11,543 nt of DNA, from the IMG/VR virus record IMGVR_UViG_2698536484_000028; one strand, given 5' to 3'. The DNA is from a virus (taxonomy: Duplodnaviria > Heunggongvirae > Uroviricota > Caudoviricetes). Position numbers and translations under genes: made by a program. Positions 194 to 11,543 of the stretch are shown one piece after another (position 1 is the first letter of the stretch; every line of letters starts with the position of its first letter). Under the pieces are notes generated by a model. It was given only the letters and a program-made list of their open reading frames with translations. It was not told the origin of the DNA and did no database searches.

Positions 194-955
194 TTACGAG
201 GAAGCGTTAGCTATTTGAGCTTGTGTAAATTCGAAACCAGAATTTTGTAACCGTTGCACTAGACGAGGAACTGTTTCACGTACATGGTCGTTGAAATTCA
301 GATACAAAATCCCGTTAGCATCAGAAGGCTGTTCTAGGTGCTGTTTCTGAAGGATTGCTACATTGCTGCGCCCTAAGGACGAAAGAAGCATACCCATCTC
401 GAGTACAACGTTCTGTCTTGCGCGGGGTTGGATTTCTGCTTCACCGGCGCGCTTTGAGTATCCCATATCATCAGGTGTCAAAAGAACAATCCCGAAACGG
501 GTAGCAGTTTGTCCTTGCCCAATTTCACGTTCAAGCTCTTCAATAATGGTGAGTCCAGTCCCTCCCGTATTCTGCAAAATGAAATGGTCTGGTAATCCAA
601 GTTTATGAAGGATTAGCTCAAGTTGCTCCTTTGCAGTATGGTCATGGCCGTGAACAATGAATATCTTTTTGGGGAGCTCAGATGGCTGTTCTACGGCTAG
701 TGGTGTTGCCGTGGGCGGCGTTCCTAAATGGGTCATTATTGCAGTTTCAACATTGGGACGTTCTTGAGGGTTACCTTGAAACTGAATGGTCCGGGTGGTG
801 TAAAGGTTAACAATTACGCCATTCGTTAAACGATAGCAGTCACAAGTCTCACGCTGTTCGTGGGAAAAATTGGTGAACCCACACTCCCTCAAAAAGTCAG
901 GAAAAGTTTCTCTCGAGTATGGATAGGTGATCGGCATTTCAGTTAGTTCCTGCAT
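194..955 (-). CDS. TIR-like (COG4271 / Cap12-PycTIR-effector-like) nucleotide-binding domain protein with an unrecognised ~75-aa N-terminal domain
   Basis: 253-aa ORF with AAGGA about 9 nt upstream of the ATG. Residues ~97-230 carry KIFIVHGHD..AKEQLELILHKLGL..GLTIIEELERE..FGIVLLTPDDMGY..NVVLEMGMLL, which I recognise as the hallmark pattern of the predicted nucleotide-binding TIR-like family. A Pro/Thr-rich linker (GTPPTATPLAVEQPSELP) joins it to the N-terminal domain. Family assignment is from memory, not a search. Confidence 0.75.
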   Translation of the reverse strand: MQELTEMPITYPYSRETFPDFLRECGFTNFSHEQRETCDCYRLTNGVIVNLYTTRTIQFQGNPQERPNVETAIMTHLGTPPTATPLAVEQPSELPKKIFIVHGHDHTAKEQLELILHKLGLPDHFILQNTGGTGLTIIEELEREIGQGQTATRFGIVLLTPDDMGYSKRAGEAEIQPRARQNVVLEMGMLLSSLGRSNVAILQKQHLEQPSDANGILYLNFNDHVRETVPRLVQRLQNSGFEFTQAQIANASS

Positions 956-1019: not shown

Positions 1020-3083
1020 TCAATCTTTTTTGTAGTGGTACGCCTCAAAACCGCCAGCGTTCAGTGGGATATCGGGCGCCCATTCGGGGTCAGTGGAGAG
1101 AAGCGCGGAAAGCGCTTTATCGTTGAAATCTTCTGTGTCAGGTGCTTCGGTGATCACCTCGTCGTGTACCGTCAGCACAATGCTGTAACCGGCATCTTCG
1201 ATAAGCGGCATGTTTCCGGCCAGAATGTCGCGGGCGGCCGCCTGGGTGATGTTCTCCACCAGCTTTCCGCCGTAGGTTTTGAGTCGTTGCCATTTACGCG
1301 AATAAGAGTTAACCCCCATGTAGGTGATATTCCCTTTTTCGATAACCGGAGACGGGTAGCATACAGCGCGTCCGGATGGTAGCTGTATGCGCAGCCACGC
1401 GCCATCGCGGCGGATTTTAAGATAACCGCAATACAATGTTTTTTGCGGTGTGGCGATTGCAGTGCGGACGGTGCGCTCCAGTTCGTACCAGAAATCACAG
1501 GTCGCGGGATGCGCCCGGCGCCAGAGACGTTTAAGTGAGTCGCAGGCGATAAATACCCGTTCAGAAAGCCCGTAGGTTGACTTGCGTTTAACCGATTCGT
1601 CGTACCAGCTTTTCGCCTCGCGGATAACATCGCGGGGAATGTTTGGTAGTGCGGCGTTCGCCAGCTCGTCGAGATCGAGACCGTAAACCAGTGCAAAAGT
1701 GATGAAGGCCGACACACCACCACCATAACCCAGACCGAGTTCCATGACTTTACCGATCTGACGCATGTGTTTATCAACATCATCTGGTGCAATATCGAAA
1801 GCTTTTGCATACGCCAGTTTATATAAGTCCGGACCCGTTCCGGCGTCGTACTCTCTGAATGCATTCAGTTTCCATTCTTCTCCCGCCAGCCATGCCAGCA
1901 TACGGCCTTCAATGTTCGACAAGTCACTTACCACCAGCTTTTTGCCTGTTGGCGCGATAATGCAGCCACGTAACGCTGAACTGGTTAGTTCCATGATATT
2001 GTCAAACAGCAGGTCTGCACATCCGGCTTTCAGTGCTTCGATGCCTTCGTCTATTTGTTCCTGTTTTAGTGAAGGGCGGGGAAGGTTCTGGGGCTGGAAT
2101 AGCCGTCCGGCCCAACGACCGGTACGTGACGCCCCGCAGAACTGTAGCGTACCGCGTAAGCGCCCGTCGTGGCTTACGCCTTTCATCAGTGCCTTGTATT
2201 TACTGGTGCTGGTAGTACTGGCCTGCAGGCGGATAGCCAGCAGTTCTTTCACGGCAGATGGTAAATCGGGGTCGGCAATACGACGTTCCAGAGTACTGCG
2301 TTGCATGTCTGGTAGCTCCACACCGTAGGATTCAACAATGTGCTTAATCAACGCGTCTCGTTGTGTGGCTGCCTGCACTTCGCCATCAGTCATTTCCTGT
2401 GTACGCTTTGCCAGGCGCTTTTGCTCCTGGTCTACCGCTTCGATCGCAGCGCGCGCGAGTTGAATGTCCATGCAGACGCCCCGGTCGTTGATCTGCTGAT
2501 CACGATGCCAGAGCGCCAGTTCTGTCCCCTGATAATTCCACTTCGGCAGACGTTTATAGACTTCGCGCATTGCCTCGATATCCAGTCCGGCGTAAGCAAC
2601 AAAGCGCCGCCATTCTTCCGGGTGGGTTTTACTGGTGGCCCGACGCAGTTTGCTGTTTTTCGGGCGTGGCTTACAGAACAGCTGGATCAGCGCTTTACCT
2701 TCTTTGTCCTTCGCTTTGTCTTGCGGGACGCCGAGTATTTCGCAGAGTTCCCCCAGAGACCCCGGGAGGCCGTGCGCCAGCGCCTGCACCATTGTGTCGC
2801 GCCAACGTTCGACTGGCGGTGCCAGGCGCGGCATTGCATAACGCAGAACGGTGCGGTCGAAGTGAGAGTTATGGAAATAAAGCAGGGTTTCAGGGTCTGC
2901 GATTGCTTCGTATAAGCCGTGTGGAATACCACCACCGGCAGTGATATCCCACACGTTTACTGGCCCGTCGTTGATAGCCCATGCGAAAAGCATCACTTCA
3001 ACGCCTTCGGCATACGCATGGGTACCGTTCGTAATAGGGATTTCGCAATAGGTTTCCAGGTCGCCCCATAGTATATTGGACAT
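1020..3083 (-). CDS. Family A (Pol I-like) DNA polymerase with N-terminal 3'-5' exonuclease domain, phage type
   Basis: 687-aa ORF with AAGG SD 7 nt upstream. Exo I-like motif WGDLETY near the N-terminus; motif A-like [15 protein letters not shown], motif B-like [16 protein letters not shown], motif C-like LTVHDEV. Confidence 0.9.
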
Positions 3084-3129
3084 GTGTTTACCTTGGTTTT
3101 TATTCTATTAACTGATTAAAAGATTAATT

Positions 3130-3759
3130 ATGCATATGATCCAATACTTGATTGACCATACAGAGCATCTGGAGAAAATAGCTGGATATATTTTTTCATG
3201 TTTGATTGTTATGGGAGTCTGGATAAGAAAGATTATTTTTAATTATAAGTATAAAGAGCCTAAATATGTTAAGAAGTTAATTTTATATTTAGTTAAGTAT
3301 GAACGTTATCTGGATGAGGAGGATAAGAGTGCCATAGAAAAAAGAATAAATGATAAAATTATTCGTGATGCGCTGAAATTGCAATCATCTTATAACCGAA
3401 GAGATGTTATTTACATTTGCAATAGATTAGAAAAAAGACAGTATATAAATCAGTTGATTAAGCTTCAGAATTATATAGAGAAAGATAACGGAGTGTTTTT
3501 TATTAATGTTGATTTTTCAGGTTTTTTATTTATTATTAGTCGTCTGTTTTCCTTTCTGTGTTTTGTGCTGTTTACCCTTTTTTCTATTATCTGCATTATT
3601 TCCATAGGGCAAAATGAAGGCCTTTTAAATTATCTTGTGTATATGGTTATGATAATAGTTTTAGAGACTGTTGGTTTTTGGATGTATGATACTTTCCCGT
3701 CTAAGAAAAAGATCTGTGAACTAAATAAAGAATTGAGAAAGATTAAGATTCCTGAGTGA
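3130..3759 (+). CDS. Hypothetical multi-pass membrane protein encoded by a strongly AT-rich, opposite-strand insert
   Basis: 209-aa ORF on the opposite strand to its neighbours. Sample 60-nt lines count about 17-33% GC, against roughly 50% in flanking genes. Hydrophobic segments at ~aa 16-32, ~121-160 and ~168-187; Lys/Glu-rich middle region. No clear SD, and the start could be a downstream Met. Confidence 0.6.
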   Translation: MHMIQYLIDHTEHLEKIAGYIFSCLIVMGVWIRKIIFNYKYKEPKYVKKLILYLVKYERYLDEEDKSAIEKRINDKIIRDALKLQSSYNRRDVIYICNRLEKRQYINQLIKLQNYIEKDNGVFFINVDFSGFLFIISRLFSFLCFVLFTLFSIICIISIGQNEGLLNYLVYMVMIIVLETVGFWMYDTFPSKKKICELNKELRKIKIPE

Positions 3760-3777
3760 TTATACGCCTAATCAGTA

Positions 3778-3796
3778 GCCCGGTGTTTAACCGGGC
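3778..3796. other. GC hairpin between convergent genes (GCCCGG-TGTTTAA-CCGGGC)
   Basis: Perfect 6-bp inverted repeat with a 7-nt loop between the stop of 3130..3759 (+) and the stop of 3812..4360 (-). No U-tract on either strand, so not a canonical intrinsic terminator. Confidence 0.3.
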
Positions 3797-3811
3797 GTCT
3801 ATGAAGTAGGG

Positions 3812-4360
3812 TTAAATTAGTGCTTCAGCATCAGCACCTTCGCTGATATCGTCGAAATCGTCAGCGCTTGCCACTCCGCCGCCAGCGAGTGCATCGCCGT
3901 CTCGCAGGAACTGGACTCCGCCGAGTGAGGCATTAATGCGTTTACCGAAATTATTGTCCTGTGCCCAGATATCGATAACGGCGTTTACATAGCACCCTGC
4001 ATAGGGACGTCCGTCAGCCTGAATAAGTGGCGAACGATCGCGATCAAGAACAGCTGGGCGCGCTTTGTTAGCAGCATTCAGGAAGAAATTACCGGGGAAG
4101 CCTTCATACTCTGCTTTTTCATCACCATCATGCAGGCACAGATTGAGTTTTTTCTCCAGCTGGTTATAAATGGGCTCCCACTTCTCTCCCCATTTTTCCT
4201 TCGCTACCTGCTTCATAGCTTTACGGATTTCTTCCAGTTGTGGGTGTTTGGGAGACATTAAAAATACTGCGGAGAAACGCGGATCGCCTTCGCCGTTTAC
4301 AGTTTTAGCTTCAAACAGAGACGGGAAGGCCAGACGAACATTGTTCAGCTTCAGTTTCAT
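3812..4360 (-). CDS. Phage SSB-like protein (DUF2815-type) with acidic C-terminal tail
   Basis: 182-aa ORF with AAGGA SD 8 nt upstream. N-terminus MKLKLNNVRLAFPSLFEAKT..PRFSAVFLMSPKHP matches my memory of the DUF2815 phage ssDNA-binding family (as in the Enc34-type replication module). C-terminal acidic tail DDFDDISEGADAEALI. Confidence 0.8.
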   Translation of the reverse strand: MKLKLNNVRLAFPSLFEAKTVNGEGDPRFSAVFLMSPKHPQLEEIRKAMKQVAKEKWGEKWEPIYNQLEKKLNLCLHDGDEKAEYEGFPGNFFLNAANKARPAVLDRDRSPLIQADGRPYAGCYVNAVIDIWAQDNNFGKRINASLGGVQFLRDGDALAGGGVASADDFDDISEGADAEALI

Positions 4361-4375
4361 GGGTATTTCCTTAAA

Positions 4376-5677
4376 TCAGATGAGGTCTGCGGTTAGCGTA
4401 TCGTCGGATACGTCGTCGAAATCATTTACAGGGTTGATATTGAGTGCGGGGCGTGGGTCTGACTCGGGAACGACGGTGGGTTTTCCATCAGCTCGTGTTA
4501 TCAGTGCCTCGACTTTTGACCAACGGCGCGGACTGGCCTTTTTGATAAGTTTTTCGGCTTTTGTGGGACTAATAAGTTTAAAGTCGAATACTTCTTCAGT
4601 TTTGTACCTGAACTGGTCCTTCAGAAGTGCGCGAGCTGCCTCTTCATCACTCCAGGCCCGGTTACCTTGTTTTCCTGTTACCAGTTTAAACCCCGGTACC
4701 GGATGTCCGGCATTGAGTTCATCGTGAACCCGGTCCCGTACTGCCTTTAGCCAGGATTCAATAAAGTCGGCCTGGCTATAGATCTCTGCAAGCTGCTCAA
4801 TGGTTAACAGAGGTACACGTGCGCTGGCATTGGTGATTATTTCGCTGACAGGCTTTGTCAGATCTTCAAAATCGCTGGCCGCTGTTTGTAAATGCTGCAT
4901 TTTCTGGGCAGTGCAAATAGCTTTTGCTTTACAGAAGCGGCACTGTTTTTCTCCAGGTATGAAGTTTTCCAGCGGTAGTGTCTCAATGCCTTCGCATTCA
5001 GCAATATTGAGAACAAGGATCGCACTGGTTGCGGCCTCCAGTGCCCGTTCACCGAAAGACTGAAGTTCCTGTACGGTTAACGACCATTCTGAAACGTGGT
5101 TGAGCCTTGGCTGGTGAATAAATAATCTTACAGTCTCAAAGTCATACAGCATGCTGAATTGTTCGAGAGCACCCAGAGCATACAGTTGTAGTTGCTCATT
5201 TTGTTCTGCATCAATGCGGACGCCTTTGCCATATTTCAGGTCGTGGATTTGTAATTCGTTACCAGCGATGATTATGCCGTCGGCAGTTCCGAAAGATTCT
5301 TCCACACCCGTTATATGTGAGAAATCAACACGTTGTTCAACCAATAGTTCATTATTCTGTGCAAGAGTCCAGACCGTATCAACATACCGGCCGACGGCTT
5401 CGACCATTTCATCATCCACCTGTGGGCCAGATGTATCATCAGGATTTTCGCGAAGGGGGTATGAGCCGAGAAACATAGAAACATTGCATCCGGCGTAGTG
5501 TTCCGGGTGGCTTTGCCTGTTTCGTAGAACTTTTTCAGCAAGCGCGTGCGCTGTAGTGCCCTCGATTGCAAAAGTTGTTTCTTTATCCGGTTGTGTGGCC
5601 TCCAGCGCCAGACTTCCTGGGCAGCGCATCCATCGATGCGCTGATGATGGAGAAAGTTGTGCGTGAACGTCTGGCAT
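4376..5677 (-). CDS. Cas4/RecB-like PD-(D/E)XK nuclease (DUF2800-type) with Cys cluster
   Basis: 433-aa ORF with GGAGGG SD 6 nt upstream. N-terminal [15 protein letters not shown]; GTADGIII and IHDLKYGKG nuclease-core-like motifs; QLQLYALGA (QxxxY); [10 protein letters not shown] plus the N-terminal Cys as a probable Fe-S/metal cluster. Acidic C-terminal tail [16 protein letters not shown]. Confidence 0.8.
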
Positions 5678-5679
5678 GA

Positions 5680-6582
5680 TTAACCCTCCAGTGCTTTTTC
5701 AGCCAGGGTGATTACTTCAGCGAGATTTTCATCCGTTACTTCACCAAGTTTCCTGGCTCCCTGTTTTTCCAGAATTGCAATAGCTTCTGCCCGGTAGCCC
5801 CCTTTTGCTAACTGGAGGATCAACCCTTCAGCTTGTTTGCGTAGTGCCGCGAAATCAATTGTATGGTCATCTTTGGCGTCATTATTCTGGCTGGAATTTG
5901 CTGCGTCTCTGCGTGCAAATTCTTCCTGCAGCTGAAGGTACTCAACACGGTTGATCTCGATATGGCCTTTTTTAAGCATCTCGTTCAACTTGCGTAAGGT
6001 GTGGAGTTCACTGGCTGCTGTGCCGGATACATTTTTGACGTAAAACGGCCCCGTGCGTTCTCCATCTTTGTTACTGGCCTTTTTCGGCTTAACTTCATCA
6101 CGCCCATCTGCAGGTGCATCAAGTAGCTGCTCGGCAAAAGCACGTCGCTCGCCGATGGTTGGCAGGTCGTCCCAGAACTTAAGGATGTTACGGGACAGGT
6201 CCAGGAGAGCAGGTTTAAGCAGCGCCCTGGCTCGTTTGACGCCCTGCAATGCGCTGTCGAGAGCATCAATCTGAACTACTCGTTTATCGCCTTCAGCATC
6301 ACGGTAGGCAACAGCACGTTGCAGCATATCTTCTGTGATAGGGGTGGCTACCGGGTAGAAACCAGCCAGTGCGATAACGTCGCTGAACTCCAGATCATCC
6401 AGTGTCATTGCCGCTGACATATTTTCAGTTTCAGTTGCTGTATCCCGACATTCCTGCACTCGTGAAATCGTGTCAGGATGCATAACAATACCTGATGCCA
6501 TTGTGCGGATAAGACGTTCAAGCAGCGCATTATGTTGTGCCAGAAGTTGATTATTAAGTTCTAGACTGGTTTCTAAACTCAT
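5680..6582 (-). CDS. Hypothetical protein, first large gene of the replication operon
   Basis: 300-aa ORF with GAGGA SD 7 nt upstream. Its start overlaps the upstream ORF stop (ATGA) and its stop is 2 nt from the nuclease start. No family recognised. Confidence 0.7.
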
Positions 6583-6728
6583 ACTGTGGTCCTCGCTACA
6601 AGGAGAATGAAAGTGATGATCAGACCGAGCGCAGTGGCAACGGCCAGACCGGTCATCAAATCGAAGTTTTTACGGCGATAACGGAGAACATCGCGCCCCG
6701 TCAGTCGATGGATGTGTTCAGGTTTCAT
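6579..6728 (-). CDS. Small single-pass membrane protein (about 49 aa from the preferred start)
   Basis: The ORF track gives 6579..6761, but the Met at 6728 has a good SD (AAGGA, 9-nt spacing) while 6761 has none. C-terminal hydrophobic helix LMTGLAVATALGLIITFILLVA. Translationally coupled (ATGA) to the next gene. Confidence 0.5.
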   Translation of the reverse strand: MKPEHIHRLTGRDVLRYRRKNFDLMTGLAVATALGLIITFILLVARTTV

Positions 6729-6785
6729 CGGTTGTATTCCTTTTTTCATATCGGGGAGCACGCTGTTGCGAGTGCGCTTTCAGAC

Positions 6786-6952: not shown

Positions 6953-7471
6953 ATGTCTGAAGAAAAAGGAATTCTTTCCCGGATAACTGAATCGTTATCC
7001 GGTGTGGGAGGAGCAATTAAAAGCGCGGTTGGAGCAGCAAGAGAGATTCAGAATCTGACTGTCGACTATGCAGTTAAAGAGAAGACGCACATCTTACTCG
7101 ATAAGCTAATGGATGTTCAGATGCAGCAAATGTCGCTTCAGGAGCTGCTGATTGCGGCTAAGGAGAAAATTGTTGAACTGGAAAATGAGAAAGTAAAGCA
7201 AGAGAACTGGGCCGCTGAAGCGGCGAGCTATGAACTTTACCAGCCTATGCGGGGTACTCTGGTCTATCGCAGCAAGCTTTCTGCAGATGCTGACCAATCT
7301 CCGGTTTATATTTGTCCCAATTGCTACGAGCAAAAGAGAAAATCTATATTGCAAGCGGAAGGTCTGGTTACTAAGCTAGGCCTTGGGCGAGTCGTTAATA
7401 TGGTTTGTTCGTACTGTAGGGCTTCCTATCTGTTCAACCCGAAATGCTTTAGAGGCCCGACTGCCTTCTGA
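6953..7471 (+). CDS. Hypothetical coiled-coil protein with C-terminal zinc-ribbon (CPNC..CSYC)
   Basis: 172-aa ORF with GAGAGA SD-like sequence upstream. Gly-rich N-terminal segment (SGVGGAIKSAVGAA), predicted coiled coil (LQELLIAAKEKIVELENEKVKQENW), then CxxC-25 residues-CxxC. Convergent with the cI-like gene. Confidence 0.7.
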   Translation: MSEEKGILSRITESLSGVGGAIKSAVGAAREIQNLTVDYAVKEKTHILLDKLMDVQMQQMSLQELLIAAKEKIVELENEKVKQENWAAEAASYELYQPMRGTLVYRSKLSADADQSPVYICPNCYEQKRKSILQAEGLVTKLGLGRVVNMVCSYCRASYLFNPKCFRGPTAF

Positions 7472-7898: not shown

Positions 7899-8573
7899 TT
7901 AGTACATGCGTAGCGCGGATTTGGCGATCCCCGCCACGTAATGGATTTTTTCAATGTTTTCGCGTGGTACTCTGACTGGTGGATGATCTTCATTTACAGA
8001 CATTAGATGGAACAGGCCATCGCGTTCGAACAAGAAGGTTTTAACCATGACCTCACCGTCCCGGGTAACCACAAGTACTTCATCACCAGGAGTGTAGTCG
8101 TGGTTGGGTTCGACGATTACGAACTCACCCTCTTTGATTCTAGGCATCATTGAATCACCAACACATTTCAGGGCGTATGCATCTTCATCCTTTGTCGGCC
8201 AGTATATGAAACCATCACTGCTACCTACTGAATATTGGGTGTCGCTCCAAAGTCCTCCAACGCCTAGCTGAGTGTTTCCCAAAACAGGTACTTTATTAAA
8301 CCTAAGAGAAATATACGTTTTTATACCTGTCGCGTCCTCTTTCTCCATTTCTTGAAGGCTCCTTTCTGCCAGGTCTATTGGTGACACGTGGAAGTAGTCG
8401 GCGATCTGCTTTAACGTTGCGTATTTCGGATCTTTCACCTCTCCTGATACCAGCCTGTGTAGCGTTGGTTGGTTCAGCTGTAACCGACGTGCCAGCTCAG
8501 TTATCGAGCTTATCTTGGTTTTGTCCATCAGGTACTTGATGTTTTGAGAAAGGATATCGGTAGTATCAATCAT
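7899..8573 (-). CDS. cI/LexA-like phage repressor (N-terminal HTH, C-terminal S24 peptidase domain)
   Basis: 224-aa ORF. N-terminal HTH region (ITELARRLQLNQPTLHRLVSG); C-terminal S24 signature with Ser in CVGDSMMP and Lys in EVMVKTF. No canonical Ala-Gly cleavage site in the linker; candidates are L-G or V-G-G in VPVLGNTQLGVGG. Confidence 0.85.
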   Translation of the reverse strand: MIDTTDILSQNIKYLMDKTKISSITELARRLQLNQPTLHRLVSGEVKDPKYATLKQIADYFHVSPIDLAERSLQEMEKEDATGIKTYISLRFNKVPVLGNTQLGVGGLWSDTQYSVGSSDGFIYWPTKDEDAYALKCVGDSMMPRIKEGEFVIVEPNHDYTPGDEVLVVTRDGEVMVKTFLFERDGLFHLMSVNEDHPPVRVPRENIEKIHYVAGIAKSALRMY

Positions 8574-8918: not shown

Positions 8919-11180
8919 ATGTCTGATAACAAACCATGGGGAGCTACGCCCGATGAGTGGTTCCACTTCGATCTGGTGTTGGGGATGACAGACAGGCTTT
9001 TACCTGTGGTGTCCAATCCCTGTGCAGAACTGTCGCCTAATAGCAAGCTGTCTCATAATTTCGGCAAAACCCCCAGTCGCTACAATGGCCAACGTAAGGT
9101 TGTTGGTATCCCCGACTGGGCTAACTATGTTGTTACGGAAAACGATTTTGCCCGGTGGTCGAACGAACCCGATTACGGTATTTGCGTTCGTACTGGCGAC
9201 GGGGTGGTGGCTCTGGACTGCGATATCAATGACGCCGGGATGCAGGAGATCGTACGCAATATTATCCTATCATGCCTGGGGGAACTTCCGCCACGTCGCT
9301 GGCGGGCTGACAGTCATAAATGCCTGTACCTGATTGCTGTTGATGGCGACTACCGTAAACGTGGTCACCGCCTGGAAGGCGAAAACAAACAAATAGAGCT
9401 GCTCGCTAAGGGCCAGCAGTTTGTGGCTTGTGGTACCCATCCGGCAGGCGAACGTATTCAGTGGGACAGCGGTTTGCCCGGCGAACCTCTGAAAATTACA
9501 TCTGAACAGCTCGAAAGCCTGTGGCAGCGTCTGGCGGATAACTTACCCGTGAAAGACAGCTATACCGCAGGTGCAGGACGTCAGCGTGACCTTTCCTGTG
9601 TTGATCCTTCCGCGACAGATGATGTCGCCGACTGGCTTGACGCGAACGGGTGGACTCTGTCAGTCAGCTCTGATGGTTCCCGCAATCTGAAACCGTTTCG
9701 GGATGAGTCAGAATACAGCAACGGTTGCAGCGAAACATCCATTAAGTATTTTCCAAAAGGGACGGGGGGATTTGAACAGGGACATTTTAAAAGCATGCAC
9801 AACACCGATGCGGGGCTTACTGATGCCGACTGGCTGGAAGGCTACGGCTATACGCAATCCCTGTTCGAAGATCTCACGGTGGCTGAAGATGGCGATAAGC
9901 CTGAATTTACCGATATTAATACAGATATGACAGCTCATTTTCTGGAACGCTTTATCTACGTCATCGAGGGTGACCAGGTATGTGATCTTAGCCGACCGCC
10001 ATATCAGTGCATGATGGATATGAAGTCGTTCAAAAACCTGATGGCGCCTTACCAGTTCCCGCCAGAAGGGAAAGGACAACCAACTCCCGCAACCAAACGG
10101 TGGATAGAGCATCGGCATAAGAAGATTGCTGAGACGACAGGCTATAAGCCCGGTGCGGGACGTATTATCGAGCGTTTCGACGGGCGGTTTGAGATAAACG
10201 AATTTTATATGCCTGAGCATCCACGTACAGCGGATACAAGTAAGGTGTCCACGTTCCTTAATCATATGGCGTATCTGGTACCTGATGCCTGGCAGCGCGA
10301 GTTTTTCATCGCCCGTCTGGGGTGGATGGTTCAGCGTCCGGAGCGTCGATGCCCGATTTCTATTCTGCATGTGGCTACCGCACATGGTACGGGCAGAGGA
10401 TGGGTCAGTCAGTTAATGGAGCGCGTGCTTGGCCCGTGGAACTGTGCTCGTACTCGCATGAAGATCCTGTGCGATAACCAGTTCCATGACTATCTGTACA
10501 ATACACTTCTATGCACCATTGACGAGGTGCGCGAAAACGATAAGCGGTATGAGGTGAACGATAAGATCCGTGACGTGCTGACAGAACCACGGTTTGAAGT
10601 GAACCGCAAATATGGCAGCAAAAAAACGATGGATATATACACCGGCTTTCTGTTCTACACCAACCACTTTGATGCGCTGGCGCTGCCAGAGGAAGACCGA
10701 CGTATAGCTGTGCTGGGGGGCCCTGACTTCGCCGCAACTGAAGAGCATTACGCCAGCCTGTACGGTGCGCTAAGCGACAGCGACTTTATCGCCCAGGTGT
10801 ACTGGTATCTAATGGGCGTTGACCTGTCTCGCTTTAACTGGCAGCGCGCCCCCGAGACGAAAGAACGCCTTCTGATGATTGAAAGCAATAAGAGCGATGT
10901 GGAGGCTGCTCTTATTGAAATCCTGGATAATCCGCCTGTGCCAGCAATGACTTATCAACAAATTGTTAACGCAATACTGGCAGAAGCAGGAATGGATGTA
11001 GAAATTAACCAGAAGCATATTACTCGCATTTTGAAAGAAAGAACAAAGCGGGAACCCGTACGCGTAAAAATTGACGGGTTTGTATATAGGATTTGGATTC
11101 TTGTAAAAAATAACGATTTCAGCAACGAAGAATTGCGCGAAATATATAAATCTTGCGAAATTTTGCAATCTGGATTGTAA
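8919..11180 (+). CDS. Replication initiator: AEP-type primase-polymerase N-terminal domain fused to an SF3-helicase-like NTPase domain
   Basis: 753-aa ORF. N-terminal GICVRTGDGVVALDCD (hhhDhD-type AEP motif). C-terminal region has P-loop-like ILHVATAHGTGRGW, Walker B-like LLCTIDEV and motif C-like FYTNHF. An iteron origin lies immediately downstream. Confidence 0.8.
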   Translation: MSDNKPWGATPDEWFHFDLVLGMTDRLLPVVSNPCAELSPNSKLSHNFGKTPSRYNGQRKVVGIPDWANYVVTENDFARWSNEPDYGICVRTGDGVVALDCDINDAGMQEIVRNIILSCLGELPPRRWRADSHKCLYLIAVDGDYRKRGHRLEGENKQIELLAKGQQFVACGTHPAGERIQWDSGLPGEPLKITSEQLESLWQRLADNLPVKDSYTAGAGRQRDLSCVDPSATDDVADWLDANGWTLSVSSDGSRNLKPFRDESEYSNGCSETSIKYFPKGTGGFEQGHFKSMHNTDAGLTDADWLEGYGYTQSLFEDLTVAEDGDKPEFTDINTDMTAHFLERFIYVIEGDQVCDLSRPPYQCMMDMKSFKNLMAPYQFPPEGKGQPTPATKRWIEHRHKKIAETTGYKPGAGRIIERFDGRFEINEFYMPEHPRTADTSKVSTFLNHMAYLVPDAWQREFFIARLGWMVQRPERRCPISILHVATAHGTGRGWVSQLMERVLGPWNCARTRMKILCDNQFHDYLYNTLLCTIDEVRENDKRYEVNDKIRDVLTEPRFEVNRKYGSKKTMDIYTGFLFYTNHFDALALPEEDRRIAVLGGPDFAATEEHYASLYGALSDSDFIAQVYWYLMGVDLSRFNWQRAPETKERLLMIESNKSDVEAALIEILDNPPVPAMTYQQIVNAILAEAGMDVEINQKHITRILKERTKREPVRVKIDGFVYRIWILVKNNDFSNEELREIYKSCEILQSGL

Positions 11181-11183
11181 AAA

Positions 11184-11437
11184 GGTGACGGCTAGGTGAC
11201 GGCAAAACGCTTAAGCGTCACCTTAAAAAGTATATATAAAACAATGGGGAATGTGCTAAAGGTGACAGGTGACGGCAGAATTTAAAACTATATACGCGAG
11301 AGTGTGTATTTTAGGTATTATACGATCGCTTATATATATATAGAACTAAAATCAACCGTCACCTGTCACCTAAAACATCTTCAGGCTTTATATGGCGCGC
11401 TTTGCAGCAGGTGACGGATATGTAATTACGCGTCACC
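11184..11437. repeat. Iteron-type replication origin: eight GGTGAC(G/A)G repeats in both orientations around an AT-rich spacer
   Basis: GGTGACGG at 11184-11191, 11195-11202 and 11410-11417. Tandem GGTGACAGGTGACGG at 11261-11275 and its exact reverse complement CCGTCACCTGTCACC at 11356-11370, flanking an ~80-bp AT-rich segment that includes TATATATATATAG. Inverted CGTCACC at 11216-11222 and 11431-11437. Confidence 0.6.
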
Positions 11438-11440
11438 TAG

Positions 11441-11543
11441 GGAAGGTGCGAACAAGTCCCTGATATGAGATCATGTTTGTCATCTGGAGCCATGGAACAG
11501 GGTTCATCATGAGTCATCAACTTACCTTCGCCGACAGTGAATT
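11441..11543 (+). mobile_element. Left end of IS5 (terminal inverted repeat plus start of transposase), truncated by the window edge
   Basis: GGAAGGTGCGAACAAG at 11441-11456 matches the IS5 terminal repeat as I remember it and is preceded by CTAG (a typical IS5 target). The downstream sequence matches the known IS5 left end up to the transposase start. Confidence 0.8.
11509..11543 (+). CDS. insH: IS5 transposase InsH, N-terminal fragment
   Basis: ATG at 11509 translates to MSHQLTFADSEF.., the N-terminus of IS5 transposase as recalled. The ORF runs off the window. Confidence 0.75.
   Translation, partial: MSHQLTFADSE

What the first reader, a model, noticed from the sequence alone, without database searches (positions are those of the whole stretch)
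3084..3811. AT-rich, opposite-strand membrane-protein gene wedged between the SSB-like and polymerase genes
The replication genes are tightly packed on the minus strand with overlapping or few-nt junctions at roughly 50% GC. Exactly between the SSB-like gene and the polymerase sits a 630-bp ORF on the plus strand with far lower GC (about 17-33% on sample lines). It encodes a 209-aa protein with three to four hydrophobic helices and a highly charged Lys/Glu middle, and a GC hairpin follows it. Abrupt composition shift, inverted orientation and placement inside a conserved module are the signature of a horizontally acquired moron. Small membrane proteins in such positions are often superinfection-exclusion or abortive-infection factors. 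I do not recognise the family.
Basis: partly seen in the sequence, partly recalled or inferred. Interest (0 to 1): 0.65.

Follow-up and report, generated by a model that had tools for sequence, protein, structure and literature searches.

The report
Swappable prophage membrane-protein cargo gene
A small, AT-rich gene for an inner-membrane protein sits backwards in an exchangeable slot between the SSB and DNA-polymerase genes of an E. coli prophage. It belongs to a small, uncharacterised family carried as add-on cargo by phages and other mobile elements, and it most likely protects the lysogen against other phages, though nobody has tested that.

Summary
A 630-bp, 209-aa ORF lies at 3130-3759 (+) with 28.7% GC (GC3 0.31) between a family-A DNA polymerase and a DUF2815/Enc34 SSB, both on the minus strand at about 50% GC.

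The coordinates 3084-3811 match the recombination breakpoints of an exchangeable slot. Of 159 E. coli genomes with this module, 67 carry this gene. Others carry a 199-aa distant homologue, Nmad5 plus a small ORF, a SIR2 defence candidate (PADLOC PDC-S25), or an antirepressor.

The protein has about three TM helices, a roughly 90-aa cytoplasmic helical domain and a conserved tail after the last TM (P190, N199). It has no Pfam, NCBIfam, PADLOC, PDB or fold match, only PHROG 10579 (unknown function). An exhaustive HMMER search found 33 cluster representatives.

Five very divergent subfamilies (about 15-26% identity) occupy this slot on the opposite strand in relatives whose pol and SSB are 60-93% identical. 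Other members sit at known moron sites, often beside defence genes.

It evolves under purifying selection (dN/dS 0.2-0.3) but is sometimes inactivated. The best reading is a lysogen-expressed exclusion or defence protein resembling P22 SieA in architecture, with homology unproven (hhalign probability at most 20%). Function is untested.

The parts
3130..3759 (+). 209-aa cargo ORF (RefSeq WP_000551017 family; PHROG 10579). Predicted layout: N-terminal helix and TM1 (about 11-41), cytoplasmic helical domain with a beta-hairpin (45-125), TM2 (132-160), TM3 (165-188), and a conserved K-rich cytoplasmic tail helix (190-203).
   Evidence: dN/dS is 0.2-0.3. The start at M1 is supported by conservation of the N-terminal segment in P0020 and P0022. 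M28 is not conserved, so the 182-aa PHROG form is probably a mis-annotated start.
3084..3129 (+). 46-nt divergent intergenic region between the pol ATG and the cargo ATG. It holds a promoter-like site: the -35 TGGACA at 3077-3082 overlaps the pol start and lies in the conserved backbone, and the -10 TATTCT at 3101-3106 lies in the cargo. There is no clear Shine-Dalgarno sequence.
   Evidence: Promoter-like sites are no more frequent than in shuffles (5 found, 4.0 expected), so this is only a candidate.
3084..3811 (.). Exchangeable cassette slot. Homology to related prophages with other cargo stops at 3083/3084 on the left and at 3812 on the right (3778 in the SIR2 and Ant alleles). No flanking direct or inverted repeats were found.
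3778..3796 (.). GC-rich hairpin (GCCCGGT-GTTTA-ACCGGGC) just 3' of the SSB stop. It is a backbone element shared with alleles carrying other cargo, and it has no T tract.
1020..3083 (-). Family-A DNA polymerase. It forms the left conserved flank and recombination anchor. If co-transcribed with SSB, its transcript must cross the cargo in antisense.
   Evidence: No minus-strand promoter-like site was found in 2900-3950.
3812..4360 (-). DUF2815/Enc34-type (Gp2.5-like) ssDNA-binding protein. It forms the right conserved flank.
3335..3438 (+). Two identical 11-nt direct repeats (TAGAAAAAAGA at 3335-3345 and 3428-3438), 93 nt apart inside the ORF. Some strains carry an in-frame 31-codon deletion between them.
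   Evidence: and P0003.

Best explanation
The ORF is the cargo of an exchangeable accessory slot (a moron hotspot) inside the early replication operon of a temperate E. coli myovirus prophage.

It encodes an inner-membrane protein. The charged middle domain of about 90 aa and the conserved C-terminal tail face the cytoplasm, and almost nothing is exposed to the periplasm.

I infer that it is transcribed from its own promoter against the direction of the repressed early operon. It would then be made in the lysogen and silenced by head-on early transcription after induction. P22 sieB has the same arrangement.

Its most likely job is to protect the lysogen from superinfecting phages at the inner membrane. 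My preferred mechanism is a SieA-like block of genome entry through interaction with the incoming phage's membrane-inserting ejection or tape-measure proteins. The alleles would diversify under an arms race and be swapped between related prophages by homologous recombination in the conserved pol and SSB flanks.

Shown here: the gene, its composition, the slot polymorphism, the family and its contexts, purifying selection, and the predicted fold and topology.

Inferred: expression in the lysogen, any anti-phage activity, and the entry-block mechanism.
For: 1. Slot polymorphism with exact breakpoints at the pol ATG and the SSB stop. Of 159 E. coli genomes, 67 carry this gene. Others carry a 199-aa homologue, Nmad5 plus an 89-aa TM ORF, Nmad5 plus a 229-aa ORF, SIR2, or Ant/BRO.
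2. The alternative SIR2 cargo matches PADLOC defence candidate PDC-S25 (E 4e-158). A TIR protein matching PDC-S35 (E 4e-109) sits in a second variable slot on the other side of pol.
3. The cargo is far more diverged than its backbone. L002 vs L006: cargo dS 0.55 against 0.06 for pol and 0.17 for SSB. L060 vs window: pol 87%, SSB 89%, cargo 26% identical. This fits an old polymorphism with cassette exchange and does not fit co-evolution with the replisome.
4. It is a real protein family: 33 cluster representatives, collinear, with AlphaFold pLDDT 88.6 and dN/dS 0.2-0.3.
5. Members occur at classic moron sites in unrelated elements. These are the P2 S-V site (where P2 has orf30), a lambdoid early-left region on the opposite strand, a site upstream of Q next to an HD/HD_assoc protein and a methylase plus HNH, a prophage end next to an OLD-type nuclease and UmuDC, a site next to a 1273-aa SIR2 protein, and a conjugative element. 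All have 28-37% GC in 41-60% GC surroundings.
6. ETEC H10407 keeps the ORF intact although the neighbouring pol is frameshifted.
7. [quoted passage not shown] In both families the most conserved element is a cytoplasmic motif right after the last TM (PMC10883804). hhalign aligns exactly that region, scoring 29.7 against 17-18 for reversed controls.
8. P22 sieB is likewise an opposite-strand gene with its own promoter inside the early-left operon.
Against: There are no functional data of any kind.

There is no match to any PADLOC v2 model, and no Pfam, NCBIfam, PDB-sequence or fold match.

Similarity to SieA is not significant: hhalign probability is 2-20% and E is 0.02-0.001, confined to the TM hairpin and tail, with a 2-residue register shift in the motif.

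Promoter-like sites are at chance level and there is no terminator, so independent lysogenic expression is unproven.

The recurrence of five subfamilies in this one slot could instead mean a link to replication.

Some copies are inactivated: a nonsense codon in DEC5B, a frameshift in EPEC C342-62, and a 31-aa in-frame deletion in F1022. Selection is therefore not universal.

TM1 is only moderately hydrophobic in several subfamilies.
Confidence: 0.45

Rival explanations
1. Single-protein abortive-infection system. The cytoplasmic helical domain senses an infection cue, and the TM2-TM3 hairpin then oligomerises and depolarises or permeabilises the inner membrane. The infected cell dies before phage release (RexB-, SieB- or SLATT-like logic).
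For: The positional and contextual evidence is the same as for the best explanation. Most of the protein and all of its conserved residues (R90, P190, N199, L202) are cytoplasmic, which suits sensing an intracellular signal better than meeting a phage in the periplasm. The gene is arranged like P22 sieB, which acts by abortive infection (that sieB is abortive is from my own knowledge). Isolated weak Pfam hits to DUF4231 and SLATT_fungal fall on the TM hairpin.
Against: The SLATT/DUF4231 hits are single members at E about 0.02, below gathering scores, and at the rate expected by chance for 35 proteins. hhalign against SieB gives probability 0.2%. No toxicity or partner gene is evident. The only profile similarity above the reversed controls is to SieA, an entry blocker.
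Confidence: 0.2
2. Phage life-cycle accessory tied to the replication module. Examples would be a membrane anchor or organiser for the replisome (as phi29 p16.7 and p1 are), or a regulator of pol expression through antisense transcription.
For: Five divergent subfamilies sit in exactly the pol-SSB slot in the same orientation. No relative examined has an empty slot. The plus-strand transcript would be antisense to the SSB-to-pol read-through RNA.
Against: The slot also holds unrelated cargo with no family member at all: SIR2 alone, or Nmad5 plus other ORFs. Homologues occur in P2-like late operons, lambdoid early-left and Q regions, a conjugative element and chromosomal islets, none of which has this pol or SSB. 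The cargo diverges far more than pol and SSB. It stays intact where pol is a pseudogene and is broken in prophages whose pol is intact.
Confidence: 0.1
3. Lysogenic-conversion or immunity function unrelated to phages. Examples are an immunity protein against a membrane-acting toxin or bacteriocin, entry exclusion against conjugation, or modulation of a host membrane process.
For: It is a small polytopic inner-membrane protein carried by several classes of mobile element, including a conjugative element with TraG_N and a chromosomal islet between SLT and thrS. Nothing specific ties it to phage infection.
Against: No toxin or bacteriocin gene is adjacent in any of the roughly 14 contexts examined. 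Neighbours and slot-mates are repeatedly anti-phage candidates: SIR2, TIR, OLD-type nuclease and an HD/HD_assoc protein.
Confidence: 0.13
4. Not a functional gene: a chance ORF in AT-rich filler DNA.
For: The region is AT-rich, has no Shine-Dalgarno sequence, has no family annotation, and is occasionally disrupted.
Against: Homologues are collinear across 33 clusters at 15-42% identity with conserved motifs. The AlphaFold model is confident. dN/dS is 0.2-0.3. The cluster has 456 member sequences at about 99% identity.
Confidence: 0.02

Closest known systems
P22 SieA (superinfection exclusion A; types A, B, C; PMC10883804)
   Same: Both are prophage-encoded, low-GC (SieA gene 0.34), 160-215-aa inner-membrane proteins, with three predicted TMs in SieA type A and one more in types B and C. 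Both have a charged cytoplasmic segment after TM1 and a TM hairpin. In both, the best-conserved element lies on the cytoplasmic side right after the last TM: SieA FxRYPxEAxxFNK, and this family [FY]P[SGT]xKx[IV]xxxNxxLxK[IV]. Both families split into types only about 25% identical. hhalign aligns TM2-TM3 plus the motif collinearly.
   Different: No statistically supported homology was found: probability is 2-20%, and the motif needs a 2-residue gap. This family has about 50 extra cytoplasmic residues, including a beta-hairpin. SieA is confined to P22-like prophages between genes 16 and 9, whereas this family sits in a myovirus replication module and other elements. SieA's activity is demonstrated experimentally. 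This protein's activity is not.
P22 sieB/esc locus
   Same: Both are opposite-strand genes embedded in a repressor-controlled early operon. sieB has its own promoter (annotation of BK000583). sieB is about 190 aa with an N-terminal hydrophobic segment.
   Different: There is no sequence relationship (hhalign probability 0.2%). SieB has one hydrophobic region. The in-frame internal start that gives Esc has no conserved counterpart here, since M28 is not conserved.
P2 orf30 locus (non-essential AT-rich gene between S and V)
   Same: A 38%-identical homologue (P0022) occupies exactly the S-V position in a P2-like prophage. P2 orf30 is also low-GC (0.34), encodes a multi-TM protein and is annotated as non-essential.
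   Different: Orf30 is not homologous (hhalign probability 1%). It is 261 aa long and lies on the strand opposite to its neighbours, whereas P0022 is co-oriented with S and V.
Prophage and satellite defence hotspots (P2/P4-type hotspots; PADLOC candidates PDC-S25 and PDC-S35)
   Same: This is a fixed position between conserved core genes whose content is swapped among close relatives and includes defence candidates: SIR2 matching PDC-S25 in this slot, and TIR matching PDC-S35 in the neighbouring slot.
   Different: The hotspot lies inside a replication operon of a different prophage lineage. I found no published description of it. The protein matches no PADLOC v2 model.
PHROG 10579
   Same: Direct sequence match, E 3e-108 over residues 28-209.
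   Different: The PHROG has no assigned function, and its 182-aa model starts at an internal Met that would remove TM1.

Membership tests
Moron (independently expressed accessory gene in a prophage) | Present or absent, or replaced, among otherwise near-identical relatives | tested here: met
   67 of 159 E. coli genomes with the module carry it. Others carry five or more other cargo types between identical breakpoints.
Moron (independently expressed accessory gene in a prophage) | Base composition and codon usage distinct from the surrounding genome | tested here: met
   GC is 0.287 against about 0.5 in the flanks. GC3 is 0.305 against 0.41-0.57 in neighbouring genes.
Moron (independently expressed accessory gene in a prophage) | Own promoter and terminator | tested here: inconclusive
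   One promoter-like site lies upstream, but sites are at chance frequency. No intrinsic terminator was found, and the hairpin lacks a T tract and belongs to the backbone.
SieA (P22-type superinfection exclusion) | Significant sequence or profile similarity to SieA types A-C | tested here: inconclusive
   hhalign of the family profile gave probability 2.2% against P22 SieA, 6.6% against an A+B profile, and 19.7% with E 0.0012 against a 7-sequence profile. Reversed-sequence controls scored 17-18 against 29.7. hmmsearch found nothing.
SieA (P22-type superinfection exclusion) | Conserved cytoplasmic motif FxRYPxEAxxFNK after the last TM | tested here: not met
   The family has an analogous motif, [FY]PxxKxIxxxNxxLxKI. 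The P-to-N spacing is 9 rather than 7, and the EA and FNK residues are absent.
SieA (P22-type superinfection exclusion) | Polytopic inner-membrane protein with three TMs and a cytoplasmic C-terminus | tested here: met
   This is prediction only, from hydropathy, the positive-inside rule and AlphaFold. Localisation was not measured.
SieA (P22-type superinfection exclusion) | Located between the gene 16 and gene 9 homologues of a P22-like prophage | tested here: not met
   The gene sits between pol and SSB of a myovirus-type prophage.
SieA (P22-type superinfection exclusion) | Blocks DNA injection by superinfecting phage | not testable with these tools
   This needs plaque, K+ efflux and DNA-entry assays.
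SieB / RexB-type abortive membrane proteins | Sequence similarity | tested here: not met
   hhalign against P22 SieB gave probability 0.2%. No PADLOC hit of any kind was found. RexB itself was not compared directly.
SLATT / DUF4231 2TM effector domains | Pfam model match above the gathering score | tested here: not met
   DUF4231 matched 2 of 35 members (best E 0.024, 15.5 bits against a cutoff of 24.7). SLATT_fungal matched 1 of 35. This is at chance level.
DUF2207 (name NCBI gives to one homologue, P0013) | Pfam DUF2207_C match above the gathering score | tested here: not met
   6 of 35 members matched. In the three hits inspected individually, scores were 14-16 bits against a cutoff of 33 and mostly covered the TM hairpin.
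Known anti-phage defence systems (PADLOC-DB v2.0) | Match to any model | tested here: not met
   There were 0 hits at E up to 1 for the 209-aa protein and at E up to 0.01 for the 199-aa homologue.
PHROG 10579 | Profile match | tested here: met
   E 2.9e-108, covering residues 28-209 against profile positions 1-182 of 182.

The most novel reading that the evidence does not exclude
The family is a new single-gene inner-membrane anti-phage system. One option is that it is a remote branch of a wider SieA-like superfamily of genome-entry blockers that extends this mechanism beyond P22-like podoviruses. The other is that it is a self-contained sensor plus membrane-effector Abi protein. In either case its alleles are kept as an ancient, diversifying cassette polymorphism in a previously undescribed defence hotspot inside a prophage replication operon.
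Probability: 0.35. Interest if true: 0.6.

Novelty: new member of a known kind. Interest (0 to 1): 0.42.

Why it matters
If the protein excludes or aborts phages, it would add a compact single-gene membrane defence family of about 200 aa that current defence-finding tools miss. It is present in reference strains such as IAI1 and ETEC H10407, so it is easy to test.

The finding would also define a new prophage hotspot (pol-SSB, plus the neighbouring pol-ANR slot carrying TIR) that could be mined for more cargo. The 89-aa membrane ORF and the 229-aa ORF that occupy the same slot are equally uncharacterised.

A real link to SieA would help explain how such proteins recognise very different ejection machineries.

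If no phage phenotype exists, this is one more orphan moron of modest interest.

Tried and rejected
- Pfam, NCBIfam and PADLOC scans of the protein and of 35 family members gave nothing above threshold. DUF2207_C, DUF4231 and SLATT_fungal hits were sub-threshold and composition-driven.
- A PDB sequence-profile search found nothing.
- The first AlphaFold run with 13 sequences was poor (pLDDT 50). Only the 35-sequence alignment gave a usable model.
- Homology to P22 SieB and P2 Orf30 was rejected.
- I tried to deepen the SieA profile. Two genome-contig scans found nothing. Viral-contig scans gave enough type A and B variants for a 7-sequence profile, but the comparison stayed non-significant.
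- The search for related loci with the whole family alignment failed because no conserved 7-10-column stretch exists.
- A transposon or insertion-sequence origin was rejected: there are no terminal inverted repeats or target duplications.
- An RNA element was rejected: no Rfam hit in the window.
- The Esc-like internal start at M28 was rejected because that residue is not conserved.
- Literature searches for the protein accession, the phage names and the module found nothing relevant. The one paper mentioning PDC-S25 is held only as an abstract.
Full report
**1. What is there**

The window is part of a temperate E. coli myovirus-type prophage. It is 99% identical over the 1.8-kb query around the slot (window 2600-4400) to the induced phages vB_EcoM-606R2, -689R2 and -611R5, and it occurs in 159 of 5,426 complete E. 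coli genomes.

On the minus strand lies a tightly packed early-left module:
- a 300-aa ORF
- a DUF2800 PD-(D/E)XK nuclease (4376-5677)
- a DUF2815/Enc34 Gp2.5-like SSB (3812-4360)
- a family-A DNA polymerase (1020-3083)
- a TIR-domain protein (194-955)

A LexA/CI-like repressor (7899-8573) and a primase-helicase (8919-11180) lie to the right.

Its GC is 0.287 against about 0.5 in the flanks. Its GC3 is 0.305 against 0.41-0.57 in every neighbouring gene, so the shift is not only a by-product of an Ile/Phe/Lys/Asn-rich protein.

**2. The slot**

BLAST of the region against related prophages shows that homology stops exactly at the pol start codon (3083/3084). On the other side it stops at the SSB stop codon (3812), or at 3778 in two alleles.

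Between those breakpoints, E. coli prophages with 96-99% identical flanks carry different cargo:
- this gene (67 of 159 genomes)
- a 199-aa plus-strand ORF
- minus-strand Nmad5 plus an 89-aa plus-strand membrane ORF
- Nmad5 plus a 229-aa plus-strand ORF
- a 500-aa minus-strand SIR2 protein
- an Ant/BRO antirepressor plus the 199-aa ORF
- BRO plus HNH

No empty slot appeared among the 60 records sampled. The SIR2 cargo matches PADLOC defence candidate PDC-S25 (E 4e-158). The TIR protein on the other side of pol matches PDC-S35 (E 4e-109), and it is itself absent from some relatives (L005, H10407).

No terminal repeats or target duplications flank the cassette. Exchange is therefore best explained by homologous recombination in the conserved flanks.

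The GC hairpin at 3778-3796 is real. It has no T tract, was not called as a terminator, and is retained next to SSB in alleles with SIR2 or Ant cargo. It belongs to the backbone.

**3. The protein and its family**

The word-indexed search found only a near-clonal cluster (456 sequences, Enterobacteriaceae) plus truncated variants.

The 199-aa cargo of other alleles has the same layout. It aligns end to end at 22-24% identity, and profile comparison supports homology (hhalign probability 92.5%, E 5e-7, 178 columns).

An exhaustive HMMER search of 1.84 billion representatives with the joint profile returned only 33 proteins. Apart from a few truncated fragments, they are about 190-260 aa long and collinear.

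With this 35-sequence alignment AlphaFold gives a confident model (pLDDT 88.6, pTM 0.66):
- a long N-terminal helix containing TM1 (about 11-41)
- four cytoplasmic helices and a beta-hairpin (45-125)
- TM2 (132-160) and TM3 (165-188), joined by a 4-residue loop
- a short C-terminal helix (192-203)

Charge distribution gives N-out/C-in: 20 K+R in the middle domain and 7 in the tail, against 1 at the N-terminus and 0 in the loop. TM1 is only moderately hydrophobic in several subfamilies, so it may be a weak or peripheral anchor. Either way, the middle domain and the tail are cytoplasmic.

The best-conserved positions are R90, P190, N199 and L202. The tail motif is [FY]P[SGT]xKx[IV]xxxNxxLxK[IV].

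The N-terminal segment is conserved in the nearest relatives, and M28 is not. The 182-aa form in PHROG 10579 (E 3e-108, unknown function) is therefore probably a mis-called start.

**4. Evolution**

The gene is under purifying selection:
- dN/dS is about 0.2-0.3 between window alleles.
- dN/dS is 0.32 between two 199-aa alleles, against 0.11 for pol and 0.07 for SSB in the same pair.

The cargo is far older than its backbone. Between L002 and L006, cargo dS is 0.55, against 0.06 for pol and 0.17 for SSB.

Five very divergent subfamilies all sit in the pol-SSB slot on the opposite strand, while the backbone genes stay much more similar:

| Locus | Cargo subfamily | Cargo identity to this protein | pol identity | SSB identity |
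|---|---|---|---|---|
| window | this protein | - | - | - |
| L002 / L006 | 199-aa type | 22-24% | not computed vs window | not computed vs window |
| L014 | P0024 | 15% | 66% | 60% |
| L015 | P0029 | 19% | 84% | 93% |
| L060 | P0036 | 26% | 87% | 89% |

This is the pattern of a long-standing, diversifying cassette polymorphism. It is neither a single recent acquisition nor a protein co-evolving with the replisome.

The gene is dispensable. DEC5B has a nonsense codon (E63*). EPEC C342-62 has a frameshift. F1022 and a 25-member cluster have an in-frame 31-codon deletion, which in F1022 lies between two 11-nt direct repeats. Conversely, ETEC H10407 keeps the ORF intact beside a frameshifted pol.

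**5. Contexts elsewhere**

Other family members sit at classic accessory positions in unrelated elements:
- between gpS and gpV of a P2-like prophage, the position of the non-essential AT-rich orf30 in P2
- on the opposite strand in a lambdoid early-left region
- just upstream of antiterminator Q, near an HD/HD_assoc protein and a methylase plus HNH
- at a prophage end next to an OLD-type nuclease and UmuDC
- next to UmuDC and a 1,273-aa SIR2 protein
- in a conjugative element with TraG_N
- beside a prophage remnant, and in a chromosomal islet

Every copy has 28-37% GC in 41-60% GC surroundings.

**6. Mechanism**

Position, slot-mates, neighbours, orientation, composition and diversifying evolution all point to an accessory protein that benefits the lysogen, most plausibly by acting against superinfecting phages.

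The orientation implies, by inference only, expression while the early operon is repressed and interference from head-on early transcription after induction. No minus-strand promoter-like site lies between SSB and pol, so pol is probably read through the cargo in antisense. P22 sieB has exactly this arrangement.

The closest known analogue in architecture is P22 SieA. It is a 162-164-aa inner-membrane protein with three predicted TMs that blocks DNA injection, and its most conserved element, FxRYPxEAxxFNK, lies on the cytoplasmic side after the last TM (PMC10883804).

I built SieA profiles from P22, E. coli HS prophage HS1 (type B) and IMG/VR variants. hhalign always aligned TM2-TM3 plus the tail motif, with a 2-residue gap, and support rose with profile depth:

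| SieA profile | hhalign probability | E-value |
|---|---|---|
| P22 SieA alone | 2.2% | 0.022 |
| Types A + B | 6.6% | 0.0055 |
| 7 sequences | 19.7% | 0.0012 |

The 7-sequence comparison scored 29.7, against 17-18 for reversed-sequence controls.

That is a lead, not proof. I do not file the protein as a SieA family member.

I prefer an entry-block mechanism. An abortive, membrane-depolarising mechanism is the main rival, because nearly all conserved residues are cytoplasmic. A replication-linked role is unlikely given the unrelated slot-mates, the foreign contexts and the decoupled divergence.

**7. Verdict**

This is a real gene in a real exchangeable slot, and the moron interpretation is supported. 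The function is untested. The family is uncharacterised but is of a familiar kind: prophage-borne membrane cargo in a defence-type hotspot. It is of moderate interest and easy to test experimentally.

Noticed in passing
window 194-955 (-): A TIR-domain protein (Pfam CAP12-PCTIR_TIR; PADLOC candidate PDC-S35, E 4e-109; PHROG 16442) sits just downstream of pol. It occupies a second variable slot. It is absent in L005 and in ETEC H10407, where the ANR regulator abuts pol.
   Followed up: partly
L004 4442-5944 (-); L003 2041-2310 (+); L005 4625-5314 (+): Other cargo of the same slot was found. A 500-aa SIR2 protein matches PADLOC PDC-S25. An 89-aa, 2-3-TM ORF and a 229-aa soluble ORF, both plus-strand and low-GC, have no family match. 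The latter two accompany a minus-strand Nmad5 gene.
   Followed up: partly
window 3335-3345 and 3428-3438: An identical 11-nt direct repeat (TAGAAAAAAGA) lies 93 nt apart inside the ORF. Strain F1022 carries the corresponding in-frame 31-codon deletion (residues 70-100, including the conserved R90), and the 25-member cluster P0003 lacks the same residues. DEC5B has a nonsense codon at E63.
   Followed up: yes
L019 (ETEC H10407) 121-2195 and 2242-2871: In H10407 the prophage DNA polymerase is annotated as frameshifted, while the adjacent 209-aa cargo ORF is intact.
   Followed up: partly
window 3778-3796; L003 about 3040-3062; L005 about 5970-5992: Two alternative GC hairpins sit immediately 3' of the SSB stop in different alleles: GCCCGGT..ACCGGGC, or an imperfect CCCCCAGC..GCTGGGGG-type stem. 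Neither has a T tract. They may be mRNA 3'-end or processing elements of the SSB gene, or recombination junctions.
   Followed up: no
window 6953-7471 (+): A 172-aa ORF (PHROG 1244, unknown function) has a coiled-coil-like N-terminal half and a C-terminal CxxC...CxxC pair. It lies on the opposite strand between the early-left operon and the repressor. Relatives with a different repressor allele (L001, L004) have no annotated gene there, so this looks like another mosaic accessory position.
   Followed up: no
window 6579-6761 (-): A small ORF (60 aa from GTG) has a C-terminal hydrophobic helix and overlaps the start of the 300-aa ORF. Related RefSeq records annotate a 49-aa hypothetical protein at the corresponding position.
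   Followed up: no
window 10950-11543: GC falls to about 0.37 at and after the end of the primase-helicase gene. This may be another AT-rich accessory or regulatory stretch. It was not examined.
   Followed up: no
L056 25463-26101 (-) (E. coli HS prophage HS1): The functionally tested type B SieA of prophage HS1 is annotated only as 'hypothetical protein' (WP_000717773.1) in RefSeq. IMG/VR prophages hold further SieA variants, for example a 193-aa form in L089.
   Followed up: partly
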